In this document: positions 39,001-48,000 of the stretch, one piece after another
Layout: every line of letters begins with the position of its first letter
How positions within the stretch are numbered: the stretch's first letter is position 1
NCBI GenBank assembly: GCA_016867495.1
Contig: VGJL01000001.1
Span: forward strand, 92,153-156,152
Length of the DNA: 64,000 nucleotides
Direction of reading: 5' to 3'
Origin: Candidatus Eiseniibacteriota bacterium
GTDB lineage: Bacteria; Eisenbacteria; RBG-16-71-46; CAIMUX01; VGJL01
Position numbers: made by a program

Positions 39001-42000
39001 GCGATCCAGTCGCGGTCCGCCTCCGCGTACGGCGGATCGGCGAACGCGTAGCGGAACGATCTGCCCTCTTCCTCGAGAACCTTGACCCCCGACCCGACCG
39101 AGGCCGCGAGGACCCGGCTCCTCGCCGACAGGCCGAGATCCTCGATGTTGCCCCTGAGGAGGCGAAGGGCGCCCGGATCGCGCTCGATGAAGCATGCCTC
39201 GGCCGCCCCGCGGCTGAGCGCCTCGATTCCGACGGCCCCGACTCCGGCGAAGAGATCGAGGACCGCCGCTCCCTCGATCGCCTCCGCCAAGATGTCGAAG
39301 AGGACTTGGCGCACGTGCCCTTGCGTCGGCCTGAGGGTCTTGCCCGGCGGCGTCCTGAGCGTGCGCCCCTTCAGCTCTCCGGCAATGACCCGCATCATGC
39401 CCTGCTGCCCCGGAGCAATGCGATGGCCGATGAAAGCTCATCGCAGATCGCGTCGATTCCCTTGCCGTCCGTGTCGACGACCAGCTCGGCTCCCCTATAG
39501 AGATCCTCACGCGAAGACAGGAGGGAAGGCAGTACGAGCCTCGCCGCGGCGCCCTCCCCCAGGGGCCGCGCCGGCGCCCCCGGGGCTCCGATGCGCCTCA
39601 TGATCTCCGGGAGGGACGTCTTCAGCCAGACGGCGACGCAGCGATCCTCGAGGGCGGCTCTGTTGCGAGGATCGATGAGGGTCCCCCCCCCGCAAGCGAT
39701 GATCAACCCCTCGCCGGCGCAGAGATCGCGGAAGATCCTCCCCTCCACCTCTCGGAAGTAGGGTTCGCCCCGGGCCGCGAAGATATCGCTGATCGGGAGC
39801 CCCTCCGAGCGCTCCACGAGGAGGTCGACATCATGGAAGGGAAGCCCAGTTCTGCTGCTCAACGCCTGCCCGACGGTCGTCTTGCCGGCCGCCATGAATC
39901 CGATCAGAGCCAGATTCGGGGCGGGAATCATGGCTTCTGCCCGCCCTCGGCCGGCTGGCCCGCATCGGGGGGCGCGGCCCCCGTCTGCGGCCTCTCCCCA
40001 GCGCCCGTCGCCGGCTCCGGCCCATCGGCCGGTTCGCTGATCTCGACCGAGGCGAGCGGGCGCTTCTGGCCTTCTTCGGCCCTGTGCCTCTCGTAGAAGT
40101 CGTCCGGCTTCACGACCTCGGTCGATCTGCGGACTGAGTCCTCGACCCCGCGCAGCGTACGCTGCAGATCGCCAAGGCCCTTTCCAAGCGTCCGCGCGAT
40201 GTCAGGGATGTGGCGCGGACCGAACAGGACAAAGACGAGGAGCAGGATGAGGAGCAGCTCTTGAGTCCCGACGTTGAACACCGATCGACCTTCTCCCTTG
40301 TGCCACTGAGACCTTCACCATGCTACCAGAAGCGCCGGCGCCCGCAAGAAGGCGGGGGGCCCTGTCGGACCCCCCGCCTGAGGTTTCAGCTACCGTGGAA
40401 AGGCTAGAAGTTGAATTTCACCCCGACCATGTGGTTGTCGTCGAAGAAGTCGTTCACGAGGCGCAGGGCGTAGTCGAAGTTGAGCTTGCTCTGGCCGCCC
40501 AGCGGGAGGGCCACTCCGAGGCCGAACGCCGGGCCGTAGAGGTAGTCGTCGTTGCCGCTCAGGGTCCCGCCTCCGCGCACGAAGAACTGGTCGTGATAGG
40601 CGAACTCCGCCCCCAGATTGACCTCGTCGTCGTTGAAGTTGTTCGACTGGAAGCTACCGTACCCCGCGACCATCCCGATGTCTGTGAGCGGGTACTCGTA
40701 GCGCCCGCCGAACTCGATGTAGCTCGGCAGCTCGAACGGCGCGGAGAGCGACGAGAGCGAGCGGTCGCCCGCCTGGGGGTTGTCCGAGGTCCGGTGGAAG
40801 CTCTCGAAGTCGGCGCCCGAGAACCTCATCGTGGGGCCGATGTTCTTCAGCGCCAGTCCGAACGAGACCCCCTTGGGGCCCGGCCGGTACTGGATCCCGA
40901 TGTCGAACGCGACCCCCGACGCGTGGGCTTGAAGAACCGACTCCGAAATGAGCTTGCCGGTGAGGCCGATCGTGACCTGATCGGTCATGTAGCGCCCGTA
41001 GGAGAGACCGAGGATCGAGAAGTTCGGCGAGAAGACCCTCCCGGTCCCTTCCGGCGCCAGTTCGGTCGTTTCGATGATGTCGCCGATCGAGAGGACGTCG
41101 GCCGTCACCGCGATCGTCCCGAAGCTGGTCTGCGCGGCGACGCCGACGTAGTTCTTCTTCATGTCGGCGATGTAGGTGAGGTTCGAGAAGAGAGCCTCGA
41201 CCCCCCGCACGCCGGAGATGGCGGCGGGATTCCAGTAGAGCATCTCGAGTCCGCCCCAGTCGGCGACGGCGCCGTCGCCGATCGCGAGTCCTCTGGGGCT
41301 GTTCGGGATCAGTAGCTCGGAGGCACCCGCCGTCCCGATCCGGTCGGAGTTGCCCGCGAAGGCCGCCGCCACGAGAGCCGTGGAGAGCAGGACCGCCGCA
41401 GCCAGGACAAACTGAACCTTCATCGCGTATCCTCCTTTCCCTGGTTCTAGAAGCGATTCAGCCGTTCTTTTTCGACGAAGACGGCAAGCTTGCCGACATG
41501 AGCGCCGACTCCCTTGGCGTCCACATGGAAGATGTAGATCCCGCTGGCAACCGGTATCGCCTGCTCGTTCTGGAGGTCCCACTCGAGGATCGAGCTGACC
41601 TGGTCCTCCGCTCCCTCCTTCTCGAGCGTCCGAATCAGCTCGCCGGCCAGATTGAAGAGGCGAATCGTCGTCGGCACGTTGGGCAGATTGATGAACCGCA
41701 CCACCCGATTGAACTGATCCAGCTCGTAGGCGCTCTGGTTGAGATAGGGATTGGGGACAGCCCGGATGCGGCTGAGATCGTACCCAACGACATCCCCCGC
41801 CCTGTCGCCGGCTGCGTAGGTCCTGAAGCGGAACTTGTCCGCCGGGGTGTTCGGCTTCGTCGTCGAGAACTTGATGACGGTGCCGTCCGGCGGCATCTGG
41901 AGAGGATCGGCATCCGACCAGACGACGAGCCTCGCGAAGAGCTCGACTCCGGTTGGATTCTGGCCCCACTCTCCATCGCTCACCTCGGCCACGACCTGCT

Positions 42001-45000: not shown

Positions 45001-48000
45001 GCGTGTACGGATTGCCGCTGCTGATGTTGATCAGCACGTTGACTCCCATCTTCTCGAAGGGGCGAAGGCCGCCGATCACCGGCCCCTGTCCCTTCTCGAA
45101 ACGATAGTCGACGTTCGCCGAGATCTTGTGGCGTTGATCGAAGTCGAGGGGCGCGGTCTGCTTCGGCGCGATCCCTCCCGTCCAGGCGATATTGCGCTGG
45201 GAGTTGGCCACGGATCCCGTCCCGTTCGCGAAGGAGTAGGTGTAGTTGAGCTGCGCGGCGAGATTCGAGGTCCGGCGCAGGTCGAAAGCGAAGTCGACTC
45301 CCTTGATCGTGCCGTAGTCGGTGTTGCGGAACGAGGAGTAGGAGTTCGGAGATGAGCGGATCGACTGGACCTGGACGAGGTCCTGGACGTTCTTGTAGAA
45401 GGCGGTCAGGTCGATGCGCGCGCGCTCCGAGACCTGCTGGGTGAACCCGACCTCATAAGCCGTCGTCGTCTCGGGGGTCAGGTTCGGATTCCCGAAGGGG
45501 TAGTAGTACCCTCCCTCCCTCACCTTGTACTCGCCATAGACGAAGCCGGTGTAGAGGTCCTCCAGGTTCGGCTGCTGGAAAAAGATCCCGTAGTTGGCGT
45601 GGAACTGCGTCCTCTCGCTCACGGGGAAACCGACTCCCAGGCGAGGACTCAGCTTATGCCTGACCTTGCTGTCCTCGAGGTCCTCGGGATCCAGAACGGC
45701 CCGGTCCTCGCCGAGGGGCAGCTCCTCGTTCGCGAAGATCTTGGTGTCGACATCCAGGTAGTCGTAGCGCAGACCGGCATTCAGGATGAACTGGTCCTTC
45801 TCGTACTTGTTCTGCACATAGAAGGAAGCGTCCTTGGGATGCTTCGCTCCGTCCAGTCCCCTATCGAGAGGCTTCTCGGGATCGTCGAGCGCATATCCGA
45901 AGCGATCGACGTCCACGAGTCCCTGCGGCGTTCGCATGCGGTAGGGGAAGAGATGCCGGTAGCGCCGCAGGGTGTGATCGCGGTACTCGGCTCCCACCTT
46001 CGCCTGGTTTGTCGGCGTCCACTGGACCGTCATGTCGCCCTTGAATCCAAAGTAGGACGACTCCCGATGAAGATAGTCGTCCCAGACCGAGGCGGTGCTG
46101 TCGCTGTAGACGTAGGTCGTGTCGCTCCCCACGATCCGCTGGAGGTCCTCAGTCGGCCCGTACCAGAAGAGGGGCGTCCCGGGATCGTAGGTCGGATTCC
46201 CGTCAGGACGGCTGTAGGCGTCAAGGTCCTTGAAGTAGCGGCCGTCCCCGCGGAACCGCTCCGTGTAGAACCAGTTCGCTCCGAAGGAGTAGAATGTCCG
46301 CGGGTTGATCGTGTGCGTGAAGGTTCCGAAGAGGCTCTTGTTGGTGTCCTGATAGCGCGGTGTGTGCGGCAGGTTGAACAGGTAGGAGTGCCGGTACTCC
46401 TGCCAGTCGTCCCTCGAGTTGAGCGTGCCGACGCGGATCTTGTATGGAGCGCCGAGCTGCCAGGTGCCTTTCGCCTGCCATGTGTAGCCGGACAGATCGT
46501 TGTTGGGAAGCCTCCCGTCCTTGTATAGCGCCTTCTGTTCGCCGGTGAAGCCGAGCTTCTCGATCGGCTTCGGAGCGCGGTCGCGCTGCCAGCGGCTCTC
46601 GCCGCTCAGGAAGAAGGTCAGCTGATCCGTGCCCGGGATCACCGGACCTCCAAGAGAGGCGTCATAGATGTTCCAGTCGTAGCTCTTGGCGCCTAGCCAT
46701 TCGCCGATCCTGTTGTCGGTGACGACCTCGACGCTGCCGAAGTATTCCGGCTCTCCCTCCCGCGTGATGACGTTGACCGCGCCGGACATGATCTTCCCGT
46801 ACTCGGCATTGAAACCGCCCGTCATGACCACGATCTGGTCGATGGCGTTCTGGTTCACGGAGGTGGTCGAAAGCCCGGTCAAGGGGTCCTGCTGCGAGAA
46901 CCCGTCCACGTAGTAGGCGACCTCCTCCGCCCTGCCCCCCCGCACGTAGAGACGAGGCGCGTTGCTCGCCTCGGCCCCCACGGGGGTCAGGCTCTGCGCG
47001 ACGATGCCGGCCTGCTGGCTTGCGACGTTCTGGTATCCCCTCGCGGGGAGATTCTCGACCTCCTCGCGACCCAGGAACCGCGTCGTGCCCGTGAGGTCCT
47101 TCTGGATGAGCGGCTTCTCGGCGCGGATCTCGACGGTCTGGACCACGCCCAGCACCGTCTGTTCCAAGGCGAAGTCCGCCTCCGTCGTGAAGTCGGGTGC
47201 GACCCGCACGTCACCCAGGACCACTGGCTTGTAGCCGACTAGGGTCGCCTGCAGCTGGTAGGTTCCGGCCGGAACGTTGAGGACGAAGTAGCGCCCCGCG
47301 GCGTCGGCCGTCGCCCCCATCGTTGTTCCGACGATCGTGATGTTCGCACCGGCGAGCGGTTGGCCGCTCTCCCTGCCGGTGACGACCCCTGAGATCTTCC
47401 CCACCGTTCCCGCCCACGCTGTCGAGACCAGGATCGGCCCCAGCAGCAGCAGGAAGGCAAGTCGGTGGAGACGGTTCTGCAGGAACATACGCCCCCCTTC
47501 CGCTCACAATGAGCAGGCTGTGGACTCCTTGTCCGATCGGACCATCCGGCCCGCGACTCCTCCCAATCCAAGCACCTCCGCGACGAGAAGTTATTCGCTT
47601 GGAACCCAAGAGCTTAGGGCGGCAGCAAAGTAGTCCCGCCGCAGACCGGTGTCAAGCTCTTTTCCCCTGCCGGTCTGGGCCCCCGCGGCACTGCGCGAAA
47701 GGAGTCGTGCGAAACGCACCCCCGGGAGCCTCCCGACCCTCTATCGGCGGGGCAAACCTCAAGCTTTCGCACTAGTTAGCCGATGAACAGGCATGGAATG
47801 GAAGATGCTCGCCGCAAGGGAGTTCCGGCCTCCGCCGGCCGGAGATGCGCTCTCATGGCAAGGGGGTGAGCGGCAGGTGAGATCGAAGAGCAGGCGCCAA
47901 CCTATAGCTATCCAAGGGTTTACGCTGGTCGAACTCATGATCGCCTTGGTGATCCTCGCCGTGGGAATTCTCGGAGTCGGACAGATCTTCGCCGTCTCGG

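What the first reader, a model, noticed from the sequence alone, without database searches (positions are those of the whole stretch)
40404..47488. T9SS cargo gene flanked by a PorV-like barrel gene and a TonB-dependent receptor gene
The 1044-aa protein carries an N-terminal Sec signal and a clear type-IX-secretion C-terminal sorting domain. Immediately downstream, on the same strand, is a FadL-like outer-membrane protein with a PorV-like N-terminal signature. Upstream, also on the same strand, is a CarbopepD_reg plus TonB-dependent transporter of the SusC-like type. The compact three-gene unit could be a surface-enzyme plus uptake module, analogous to polysaccharide utilisation loci. The cargo body has no recognised catalytic motif, so its activity is unknown. 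Presence of a T9SS sorting domain also constrains the taxonomic affiliation to the FCB group.
Basis: partly seen in the sequence, partly recalled or inferred. Interest (0 to 1): 0.55.

Follow-up and report, generated by a model that had tools for sequence, protein, structure and literature searches.

The report
Conserved outer-membrane uptake trio, function untested
Three adjacent genes (a TonB-dependent outer-membrane transporter, a 1044-residue secreted protein of unknown function, and a PorV-like barrel that probably anchors it) form an uncharacterised cassette conserved across many uncultured bacterial phyla, and may take up cell-wall (peptidoglycan) fragments.

Summary
The three genes are real and lie on the minus strand as one tight unit. 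They are a TonB-dependent receptor (47488-44639), a 1044-aa Sec-exported all-beta protein (44581-41447) and a PorV/PorQ-family barrel (41423-40404). The window matches a Candidatus Eisenbacteria MAG.

The "clear" T9SS sorting domain is overstated. This copy scores below the curated cut-offs, although its orthologues match PorU, PorZ and type-A sorting domains. The receptor is not a SusC-family member.

This is not a variable PUL. The trio is an orthologous cassette kept in the same order in about 70 of 80 species-level loci (Eisenbacteria, Zixibacteria, Latescibacterota, Gemmatimonadota and others). No fourth gene is universal, and the three parts co-evolve. The body has no Pfam or NCBIfam family, yet 4540 clusters match it.

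The AlphaFold model shows a conserved galactose-mutarotase-like supersandwich, an Fn3 domain, variable beta domains and the sorting domain. The protein ends in a trio-specific tail, F-x-E-x-E-x-L-x-x-F.

In several separate clades the trio is followed by murein-peptide genes: an amidase, LdcA, NlpC/P60 and a dipeptide epimerase.

Best reading: a TonB-powered uptake complex whose surface partner is held by its own PorV-like barrel. Peptidoglycan fragments are the candidate substrate. Nothing has been tested experimentally.

The parts
44639..47488 (-). TonB-dependent receptor gene, 949 aa. It has a signal peptide, then CarboxypepD_reg (residues 32-112, nt 47153-47395), then Plug (residues 130-236, nt 46781-47101), then the beta-barrel running to a C-terminal Phe.
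   Evidence: All three Pfam domains pass their cut-offs. No NCBIfam equivalog is reached, and TIGR04056 (SusC) scores 53 against 368. Orthologues in 77 loci are 39-76% identical. The motif V-x-A-E-[RK]-P-L-I before the plug is conserved and looks like a TonB box; that reading is inference.
41447..44581 (-). Gene for the 1044-aa Sec-exported all-beta protein (the 'cargo'). It has no Pfam or NCBIfam family for its body.
   Evidence: It is 100% identical to hypothetical protein FJY88_00585 of a Candidatus Eisenbacteria MAG. The AF2 model has pLDDT 88.9 and pTM 0.80. The family holds 4540 clusters at E<=1e-30.
43292..44464 (-). Cargo residues 40-430: the most conserved domain, a galactose-mutarotase-like beta-supersandwich. 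It contains a DPDLGG..DD acidic cluster and nearly invariant H186 and C254.
41777..43291 (-). Cargo residues 431-935: one Fn3 domain followed by variable beta domains that have no close solved relative.
41450..41776 (-). Cargo residues 936-1044: a divergent T9SS-type C-terminal Ig-like domain carrying the motifs VPNPY, TIRLFNLAGELIRTL and ASGIYIFHV...GKLAVF. It ends in the trio-specific tail FVEKERLNRF (nt 41450-41479).
   Evidence: Seven strands are modelled. Conservation is 0.62, the second highest in the protein. The tail is present in 67 of 71 cargo ORFs that sit next to both barrels and in 0 of 6 paralogues that lack them.
40404..41423 (-). PorV/PorQ-family (FadL-like) outer-membrane barrel gene, 339 aa, with a signal peptide and a C-terminal Phe.
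   Evidence: NF033709 scores 130.7 bits against a cut-off of 90. The equivalog cut-offs are not reached: PorQ 70.7 against 220, PorV 41.6 against 250, PorV2 49 against 325. All 24 orthologues tested match NF033709 (best E 1.3e-55; scores against its cut-off were not reported for the other 23). The family profile hits F. johnsoniae PorV (6h3i_F) at E 2.7e-20.
47489..47786 (.). Divergent intergenic region upstream of the TBDR gene. This is the presumed promoter region of the three-gene operon.
   Evidence: No Rfam riboswitch was found at E<=1. No sigma-70-like promoter and no terminator was found at any gene boundary (the only two terminator-like matches lie inside coding sequence). The role as promoter region is inferred from gene layout only.

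Best explanation
The three genes encode one outer-membrane complex built around a TonB-dependent transporter.

Proposed steps:
1. The 1044-aa protein is exported by Sec.
2. It is moved to the cell surface through its T9SS-type C-terminal domain.
3. The domain is not cleaved off. The protein stays bound, through that domain and its conserved acidic/aromatic tail, to its own dedicated PorV/PorQ-like barrel. This is how PorZ stays on PorQ and PorU on PorV.
4. Held next to the transporter, the conserved supersandwich domain captures, and perhaps trims, a glycan-containing ligand and hands it to the TonB-dependent barrel for energised import.

The partner would therefore play the part that the SusD, RagB or BtuG lipoproteins play in Bacteroidota. 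The most likely ligand class is peptidoglycan fragments (muropeptides) or related peptides.

Shown here: gene identities, cassette conservation, co-evolution of the three parts, domain folds and neighbourhood associations.

Inferred only: surface location, retention of the C-terminal domain, physical contact between the three proteins, direction of transport and the substrate.
For: (1) Cassette conservation. TBDR, cargo and PorV-like genes occur in the same order and strand in about 70 of 80 GTDB species loci from Eisenbacteria, Zixibacteria, Latescibacterota, Gemmatimonadota and 'Ignavibacteria' MAGs. The exceptions are loci cut by contig ends and paralogues. The trio is also in a single-cell genome, GCA_000402455.1. 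ORF clustering finds only these three families to be universal (79, 77 and 73 loci). The next most common family is in 20 loci or fewer. Flanking genes differ between lineages.

(2) Co-evolution. Pairwise-distance matrices of the three proteins correlate at 0.88-0.95. Two genomes each carry two trios of different subfamilies, and in both all three components segregate together.

(3) Anchoring. All 30 orthologue tails match the PorU C-terminal domain and 25 match that of PorZ. Those are the two T9SS proteins whose C-terminal domains are retained and bound to PorV and PorQ (PMC10202324). The domain is the second most conserved part of the protein. The tail F-x-E-x-E-x-L-x-x-[FYW] occurs only in copies that have the two barrels next door. 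The barrel is a PorV homologue.

(4) Transporter. Plug and barrel pass their cut-offs, and a TonB-box-like motif is conserved.

(6) Substrate hint. Different cargo clades have different arrangements of murein-peptide genes directly downstream on the same strand. Clade A has NlpC/P60+SH3, an LdcA-like S66 peptidase, a dipeptide-epimerase-like enolase and an exported Amidase_3. Two other clades have the Amidase_3 alone at +0 to +96 nt. Eisenbacteria clades have LdcA at +600 to +1444 nt. An S9 peptidase or TldD follows in others. The amidase has a signal peptide and the other three enzymes do not, which fits a periplasm-then-cytoplasm route.

(7) Architectural precedent. In Bacteroidota BAM, the FadL-like barrel BamG sits against BamA and holds the extracellular BamH (PMC12611786; PMC12578637).
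Against: - There is no experimental or structural evidence for surface exposure or for contacts between the three proteins.
- This protein's own sorting domain is below every curated cut-off.
- T9SS core genes (sprA, gldK/L/M/N, porU) were not found in the window or in about 8.5 kb beyond its left edge, and the genome could not be searched.
- The window's own clade has no peptidoglycan gene next to the trio. Its downstream genes are tatA, a shikimate kinase gene and an rsmD-like methyltransferase gene.
- The supersandwich fold is generic, and in the matched enzymes it is an accessory domain, not the catalytic one.
- No TonB/ExbBD genes, inner-membrane permease or regulator is conserved with the trio.
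- No riboswitch was found that would name a ligand.
- Adjacency to an amidase and LdcA could instead reflect a role in the cell's own wall turnover.
Confidence: 0.5

Rival explanations
1. The trio is part of the type IX secretion and attachment machinery of these phyla, not a nutrient system. The TBDR-like barrel would be the counterpart of PorF. The 1044-aa protein with a retained C-terminal domain would be a PorZ- or PorU-like surface component. The barrel would be its PorQ- or PorV-like anchor.
For: The C-terminal domain matches PorU and PorZ best. The gene order of a roughly 1000-aa sorting-domain protein followed by a PorV-family barrel mirrors porU-porV (PG0026/PG0027). P. gingivalis T9SS needs a TonB-dependent-receptor-like protein, PorF/PG0534, whose role is unknown (PMC5445135; PMC12704123). 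The cassette is conserved like a housekeeping system across phyla.
Against: The body is all-beta, and nothing matches the PorU peptidase region or the PorZ body. NF033707 and NF052228 match only the C-terminal domain and score 16 and 13 bits against cut-offs of 420 and 260. Some genomes carry two diverged trios in different neighbourhoods, plus extra paralogues with dockerin tails, which is typical of uptake systems and not of a single machine. Neighbours are catabolic enzymes, never T9SS genes. Homology of the TBDR to PorF was not tested.
Confidence: 0.15
2. This is a polysaccharide-utilisation module. The cargo is a surface glycoside hydrolase or lyase of a new all-beta family, and the TBDR imports the oligosaccharides it releases.
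Against: No CAZyme family, SusD, sugar kinase or permease, or regulator is conserved with the trio. The matched supersandwich domains are non-catalytic in nearly all the hits. One orthologous cassette with 40-50% identity across phyla is unlike the diversified PUL repertoires. The recurrent neighbours act on peptides, not sugars.
Confidence: 0.1
3. The trio serves the cell's own envelope. It would link the outer membrane to peptidoglycan remodelling or division, for example by positioning or activating the co-encoded amidase. It would not import anything.
For: A 620-680-aa exported Amidase_3 protein lies immediately after the trio in three cargo clades. tatA follows the trio in the window; that AmiA/AmiC-type amidases use the Tat pathway comes from my own knowledge and was not checked. 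The flanks are mostly housekeeping genes.
Against: A Plug-containing TonB-dependent barrel is a transporter in every characterised case. A T9SS-type C-terminal domain and a PorV-like partner point outward, away from the wall. The cytoplasmic LdcA, NlpC/P60 and epimerase set indicates peptide catabolism or recycling.
Confidence: 0.1
4. The TBDR exports its neighbour, as Myxococcus Oar is required for PopC secretion. The PorV-like barrel then receives the exported protein, and the whole process is independent of a T9SS.
For: A precedent exists for a CarboxypepD_reg-bearing TBDT that is needed for protein secretion (PMC6434023, listed). One orthologue (L006) carries a PF25183 OMP_b-brl_4 hit. T9SS core genes were not seen in the window.
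Against: The window's TBDR shows no PF25183 hit. A folded 110-kDa beta-rich protein cannot pass a plugged 22-strand barrel. The sorting domain and PorV-family pair is the hallmark of SprA-dependent export, and SprA is reported for six of the seven other FCB phyla surveyed, all but Chlorobiota; whether Eisenbacteria was among them was not established (PMC12611786).
Confidence: 0.05

Closest known systems
SusCD, RagAB and BtuBG-type complexes of Bacteroidota (a TonB-dependent transporter plus a surface-exposed ligand-binding partner)
   Same: A TonB-dependent barrel with an N-terminal CarboxypepD_reg extension is encoded next to a large secreted partner that is likely to bind ligand. RagAB imports peptides, so a non-sugar substrate has a precedent.
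   Different: In those systems the partner is a lipoprotein (an all-alpha SusD/RagB or a beta-propeller BtuG). Here it is an all-beta protein with a T9SS-type C-terminal domain and no lipobox. A third gene, a PorV-like barrel, is always present. The receptor fails the SusC/RagA family model (53 against 368 bits).
PorZ-PorQ and PorU-PorV pairs of the P. gingivalis T9SS attachment complex
   Same: A large surface protein's T9SS C-terminal domain is retained and docks on a cognate PorV-family barrel. The window's domain matches the PorU and PorZ domains best. The gene order matches porU-porV.
   Different: The body shows no sequence match to the PorU peptidase region or to PorZ outside the C-terminal domain. 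The barrel reaches neither the PorV nor the PorQ equivalog cut-off. A TonB-dependent receptor gene is fused into the operon.
PorP/SprF-like barrels encoded next to type-B sorting-domain cargoes such as SprB
   Same: A dedicated outer-membrane barrel encoded beside its own cargo anchors that cargo on the surface without attachment to A-LPS (PMC12704123; PMC10202324).
   Different: The barrel family differs: it is PorV/PorQ, and TIGR03519 (PorP) matches only 2 of 24 orthologues weakly. The sorting domain is type-A-like, not type B.
The BamA-BamG-BamH core of the Bacteroidota/FCB BAM complex
   Same: The architecture is the same: a FadL-like barrel packed against a larger barrel holds an extracellular protein with a carbohydrate-binding fold as a canopy.
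   Different: The proteins and the function are different. BamH is a lipoprotein. The BamG model hits only 2 of 24 PorV-like orthologues, at E 2e-5.
PorF (PG0534), the TonB-dependent-receptor-like component of the P. gingivalis T9SS
   Same: It is a TBDR-like barrel functionally tied to T9SS surface proteins. It has been proposed to import glycans.
   Different: Homology beyond the general TBDR fold was not tested. PorF is not known to be encoded next to a sorting-domain protein and a PorV-like barrel.
The YkfABC / LdcA-MpaA-YcjG murein-peptide catabolism genes
   Same: In one cargo clade the trio is followed by homologues of these enzymes plus a MurNAc-L-Ala amidase, in what looks like one operon.
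   Different: Those pathways are fed by inner-membrane permeases, and I found none linked to an outer-membrane TonB-dependent system. The scores lie below the equivalog cut-offs. The window's own locus lacks these genes.

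Membership tests
T9SS type-A C-terminal sorting domain (TIGR04183 / PF18962) | HMM score at or above the curated cut-off on the C-terminal 70-100 residues | tested here: not met
   TIGR04183 scores 14.2 bits on the whole protein and 19.3 bits on the last 115 aa, against a cut-off of 23. PF18962 gives no hit. PF13860 FlgD_ig scores 16.5 against 27.
T9SS type-A C-terminal sorting domain (TIGR04183 / PF18962) | Homology of the orthologue family to known T9SS C-terminal domains | tested here: met
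   30 of 30 orthologue tails match the PorU C-terminal domain (best E 1.3e-9). 25 of 30 match PorZ, 25 of 30 match TIGR04183 (best E 9.4e-7) and 7 of 30 match PF18962. The family profile's only PDB hit is the PorU C-terminal domain at E 0.014.
T9SS type-A C-terminal sorting domain (TIGR04183 / PF18962) | A seven-strand Ig-like beta-sandwich at the extreme C-terminus carrying the PNP, I-x-I-x-D/N-x-x-G and G-x-Y motifs | tested here: met
   Seven strands are modelled between residues 940 and 1034, at pLDDT 88-95 for most of the domain (55-58 in residues 941-960). The motifs VPNPY, TIRLFNLAGELIRTL and ASGIYIFHV are present. One non-canonical feature is a ten-residue conserved tail after the last strand.
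T9SS type-A C-terminal sorting domain (TIGR04183 / PF18962) | A T9SS translocon and motor (SprA, GldK/L/M/N or PorK/L/M/N) encoded in the same genome | not testable with these tools
   None were found in the 64-kb window or in about 8.5 kb beyond its left edge. The rest of the MAG could not be read. The literature reports SprA in six of the seven other FCB phyla surveyed, all but Chlorobiota; whether Eisenbacteria was among them was not established (PMC12611786).
PorV/PorQ family (NF033709) | Family HMM score above the cut-off over the full length | tested here: met
   130.7 bits against a cut-off of 90, covering residues 32-339. All 24 orthologues tested match the model (best E 1.3e-55; scores against the cut-off were not reported for the other 23). 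The profile hits F. johnsoniae PorV (6h3i_F) at E 2.7e-20.
PorV, PorQ or PorV2 proper (equivalogs NF033710, NF033711, NF052325) | Equivalog HMM score above the cut-off | tested here: not met
   PorV 41.6 against 250, PorQ 70.7 against 220, PorV2 49 against 325. The protein therefore belongs to a separate subfamily.
TonB-dependent transporter | An N-terminal Plug domain followed by a 22-strand barrel domain, each above the Pfam cut-off, and a C-terminal aromatic residue | tested here: met
   Plug scores 35.8 against 23.9. TonB_dep_Rec_b-barrel scores 100.3 against 27. The protein ends in ...LRTSF.
TonB-dependent transporter | A TonB box and a TonB-ExbBD system in the cell | tested here: inconclusive
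   A V-x-A-E-[RK]-P-L-I motif before the plug is conserved in the orthologues, but it was recognised by eye only. No tonB, exbB or exbD gene is in the window or conserved near the trio.
SusC/RagA family and polysaccharide utilisation locus | SusC/RagA HMM (TIGR04056) above the cut-off | tested here: not met
   53.4 bits against a cut-off of 368.25. Only the N-terminal 200 residues align.
SusC/RagA family and polysaccharide utilisation locus | An adjacent SusD-like lipoprotein, together with CAZymes and a sensor or regulator | tested here: not met
   The neighbour is an all-beta non-lipoprotein with no SusD, CAZyme or regulator family. No such gene is conserved in the 84 loci.
PorU sortase / PorZ | A body (outside the C-terminal domain) matching the PorU or PorZ model, with the equivalog score above the cut-off | tested here: not met
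   NF033707 scores 15.9 against 420 and NF052228 scores 13 against 260, and both matches cover the C-terminal domain only. The model is all-beta, made of a supersandwich, an Fn3 domain and further sandwich domains.

The most novel reading that the evidence does not exclude
The trio is a new kind of outer-membrane uptake machine, widespread in uncultured FCB-related phyla. A TonB-dependent transporter is capped by a T9SS-delivered protein instead of a lipoprotein. That protein is held permanently on its own PorV-like barrel through a retained C-terminal domain and a C-terminal docking tail. The machine's job is to capture peptidoglycan fragments from dead cells (necromass) for import. As far as my literature searches show, this would be the first TonB-dependent system described for muropeptides. 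It would also be a SusCD-equivalent built from secretion-system parts.
Probability: 0.25. Interest if true: 0.8.

Novelty: new variant of a known kind. Interest (0 to 1): 0.62.

Why it matters
The cargo family is large: 4540 clusters at 50% identity with E<=1e-30. Pattern matches confirmed by tblastn in 528 stretches of the species-representative genomes. It is confined so far to MAGs and single-cell genomes of poorly known phyla (Eisenbacteria, Zixibacteria, Latescibacterota, Gemmatimonadota, Calditrichota-like and Marinimicrobia-like). Every named source calls it a hypothetical protein or a generic T9SS sorting-domain protein. It has no Pfam or NCBIfam model.

If the proposed mechanism holds, three things follow.
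1. It shows how bacteria outside Bacteroidota could equip TonB-dependent transporters with surface partners by another route than a SusD-type lipoprotein.
2. It extends the idea of cognate PorV-like barrels that protect and anchor retained C-terminal domains beyond the secretion machine itself.
3. It points to a dedicated route for scavenging peptidoglycan, which I understand to be a substantial nitrogen-rich component of soil and sediment organic matter.

All of this can be tested with recombinant proteins, multimer structure prediction and metaproteomics.

Tried and rejected
- **Riboswitch or regulatory RNA upstream of the TBDR that would name a ligand:** no Rfam match at E<=1 in 40000-48200.
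- **Promoter and terminator scan:** uninformative. No promoter-like site was found, and the only two terminator-like matches lie inside coding sequence.
- **Sequence search of the TBDR and the PorV-like protein alone against the PDB:** only the CarboxypepD_reg domain matched for the TBDR, and nothing matched for the barrel. The PorV link needed a family profile.
- **Fold search of the full model:** Foldseek against the PDB gave weak, mostly multi-Ig matches (an S-layer protein, complement proteins, PorZ, PorU) with TM below 0.2. I rejected the S-layer idea because the N-domain is far too conserved across phyla.
- **Middle region modelled alone:** only Fn3 hits, and no enzyme fold.
- **PorU-like Cys/His dyad (H186, C254):** rejected as evidence, because no sequence or fold match to the PorU peptidase region was found.
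- **Recurrent class I/II aminotransferase near the trio and its paralogues:** these are generic aspartate/alanine aminotransferases, judged coincidental.
- **Literature searches** for the trio, for PorV plus TonB in these phyla, and for T9SS in Eisenbacteria, Zixibacteria or Latescibacteria found no description.
- **A cultured carrier:** not found. The best 120 hits of each of two homologue searches, and ten further representatives looked up by name, gave only MAGs or single-cell genomes wherever an organism was named.
- **Reading beyond the window ends to look for T9SS genes:** one look-up failed. The other showed only housekeeping genes plus an ABC-transporter pair.

Full report
**What is there**

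The region 40404-47488 holds three minus-strand genes in a high-GC (about 64%) stretch. Each is preceded by a GGAGG-type ribosome-binding site. The spacers between them are 57 and 23 nt, so they form one likely operon.

- Gene 1 (47488-44639, 949 aa) is a TonB-dependent receptor. CarboxypepD_reg, Plug and TonB_dep_Rec_b-barrel all pass the Pfam cut-offs. It reaches no NCBIfam equivalog. It fails the SusC/RagA model with 53 bits against a cut-off of 368.
- Gene 2 (44581-41447, 1044 aa) has a Sec-type signal peptide with no lipobox. It has no Pfam family at all.
- Gene 3 (41423-40404, 339 aa) passes the PorV/PorQ family model with 130.7 bits against 90. It does not reach the PorV, PorQ or PorV2 equivalog cut-offs.

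The 1044-aa protein is 100% identical to a hypothetical protein of a Candidatus Eisenbacteria MAG. NCBI taxonomy lists that phylum among the candidate phyla, not formally inside the FCB group.

**The sorting domain**

On this protein it is not. TIGR04183 scores 14-19 bits against a cut-off of 23, PF18962 gives no hit, and FlgD_ig scores 16.5 against 27.

The classical motifs are visible: VPNPY, TIRLFNLAGELIRTL and ASGIYIFHV...GKLAVF. The model shows a seven-strand sandwich.

Across 30 orthologues the picture is consistent. All 30 match the C-terminal domain of PorU, 25 match that of PorZ, and 25 match TIGR04183 (best E 9.4e-7). The family profile's only PDB hit is the PorU C-terminal domain. 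I therefore treat it as a divergent T9SS-type domain that is closest to the two domains known to be retained rather than cleaved (PMC10202324).

**It is a conserved cassette, not a PUL**

A scan of one genome per GTDB species found 528 stretches that encode a relative. The best 80 loci come from Eisenbacteria, Zixibacteria, Latescibacterota, Gemmatimonadota and MAGs labelled Ignavibacteria.

A tblastn search with the three window proteins shows TBDR, cargo and PorV-like gene in the same order and strand in about 70 of them. Identities are 39-76% for the TBDR and 37-76% for the barrel. The exceptions are loci cut by contig ends and five paralogue loci.

I clustered all ORFs of 84 loci. Only three families are universal: cargo in 79 loci, TBDR in 77 and PorV-like in 73. 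The next family is in 20 loci or fewer. Flanking genes differ between lineages. The trio is also in a single-cell genome, where an extra tandem paralogue sits beside it.

Distance matrices of the three proteins correlate at 0.88-0.95. Two genomes each carry two trios of different subfamilies, and in both all three parts segregate together.

An exhaustive profile search counts 4540 clusters (50% identity) at E<=1e-30. Every name given by a source is either 'hypothetical protein' or a generic 'T9SS type A sorting domain-containing protein'. No paper I could find describes the trio.

**Anatomy of the 1044-aa protein**

The AlphaFold model built on 60 homologues is confident, with pLDDT 88.9 and pTM 0.80. 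It is almost all beta.

- Residues 431-935 were modelled separately (pLDDT 94.7). They give only Fn3 matches, with Z no higher than 9.6, and they vary between subfamilies.
- The C-terminal domain is the second most conserved part.
- The protein ends in a tail, F-x-E-x-E-x-L-x-x-[FYW]. The tail is disordered in the monomer model. It is present in 67 of 71 cargo ORFs that have both barrels next door, and in none of 6 paralogues that lack them.
- Paralogues reuse the first ~700 residues with a dockerin, or with a canonical Por_Secre_tail (33 bits against 27), and have no neighbouring barrels.

Together these observations indicate an extracellular functional head and a specialised, partner-specific anchor.

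**Hints to the substrate**

No riboswitch or regulator is associated with the trio. Several separate cargo clades do have murein-peptide genes directly downstream on the same strand.

- One clade (about 15 loci) has four genes: NlpC/P60+SH3, an LdcA-like S66 carboxypeptidase, an enolase-superfamily dipeptide epimerase/DgcA-like protein, and a 620-680-aa Amidase_3.
- Two other clades have that amidase alone, at +0 to +96 nt.
- Eisenbacteria clades have the LdcA-like gene at +600 to +1444 nt.
- Others have an S9 peptidase or TldD.

The amidase has a signal peptide and the other three enzymes do not. That fits a route in which fragments are imported, the peptide is removed in the periplasm, and the peptide is then broken down in the cytoplasm.

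The window's own clade lacks these neighbours. There the trio is followed by tatA, a shikimate kinase gene and an rsmD-like methyltransferase gene.

**Most likely mechanism**

I propose a TonB-dependent uptake complex. Its surface partner is delivered through a T9SS-type domain and stays docked on a dedicated PorV/PorQ-like barrel. This parallels PorZ on PorQ, PorU on PorV, and type-B cargoes on PorP-like barrels. In architecture it resembles BamH held by the FadL-like BamG beside BamA.

The supersandwich head would capture a glycan-bearing ligand for the transporter. Peptidoglycan fragments are the best candidate. I put about 0.5 on the general mechanism and about 0.25-0.3 on the substrate.

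The gene identities, conservation, co-evolution, folds and neighbourhoods are shown. Localisation, protein contacts, retention of the domain, transport direction and ligand are inferred.

**Rivals**

- A T9SS attachment-type module, with a PorF-like TBDR and a PorZ/PorU-like surface protein. Arguing against it are the absence of any match to PorU or PorZ outside the C-terminal domain, the duplicated and diverged trios, and the catabolic neighbours.
- A true polysaccharide module with a new all-beta hydrolase.
- A role in the cell's own wall remodelling.
- Oar-like export by the TBDR (PMC6434023).

T9SS core genes could not be checked genome-wide. None are in the window, which otherwise holds housekeeping genes and a type IV pilus cluster. 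None are in about 8.5 kb beyond its left edge. Published work reports SprA in six of the seven other FCB phyla surveyed, all but Chlorobiota; I could not establish whether Eisenbacteria was among them.

**Verdict**

The PUL analogy is only partly right. This is an uncharacterised, widely conserved three-protein outer-membrane cassette. It is a new variant that combines two known principles: a transporter with a surface partner, and a retained sorting domain on a cognate PorV-like barrel. It comes with a testable peptidoglycan-scavenging hypothesis.

Noticed in passing
window 41450-41479 (cargo residues 1035-1044): A conserved C-terminal tail, F-x-E-x-E-x-L-x-x-[FYW]-COOH, follows the last strand of the sorting domain. 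It is found only in cargo copies that have the TBDR and PorV-like genes next door (67 of 71). It is absent from dockerin-bearing and canonical-sorting-domain paralogues (0 of 6). It is disordered in the monomer model.
   Followed up: partly
window 9273-13652 (+): A 1459-aa ORF with coding-like GC3 has no Pfam or NCBIfam match. In a related contig the gene next to it is a DUF6599 gene.
   Followed up: no
window 47787-56746 (+) and 57857-63999 (-): Divergent from the trio lies a cluster of minor-pilin or pseudopilin genes (N_methyl, PilX_N, GspH). It includes a 946-aa pilin-like protein with fn3 and 3-keto-disaccharide-hydrolase/LamG-like domains. A pilQ secretin, pilO and pilM follow. The same pilin genes flank the trio in another Eisenbacteria genome, L004.
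   Followed up: partly
L016:12756-14708, L030:10146-12128, L056:10227-12266 and orthologues: An exported 620-680-aa protein with about 460 uncharacterised N-terminal residues followed by an Amidase_3 domain recurs directly after the trio in three cargo clades. It is the most frequent fourth gene.
   Followed up: partly
L066:5881-8727, also L060, L063 and L064; L007:4826-8458: Paralogues of the cargo keep the first ~700 residues but end in a type I dockerin (948 aa) or a canonical Por_Secre_tail (1210 aa, next to a GWxTD-domain protein and several other sorting-domain proteins). They have no TBDR or PorV-like neighbour.
   Followed up: partly
L034 (DATJGS010000003.1): This contig is titled Candidatus Saccharimonadaceae but carries the complete outer-membrane trio, with 39% identity in the cargo. 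To my knowledge Saccharimonadia have no outer membrane, so the contig is probably mis-binned.
   Followed up: no
L030+L054 (CAYJMP01) and L039+L056 (JAVHPP01): Two genomes each carry two complete trios of different subfamilies. One type is followed by the amidase. The other is followed by an ABC_sub_bind protein plus a histidine kinase and a response regulator.
   Followed up: partly
window 39928-40281 (-): tatA lies 122 nt downstream of the PorV-like gene on the same strand. It occupies the position that the exported amidase takes in other clades.
   Followed up: no
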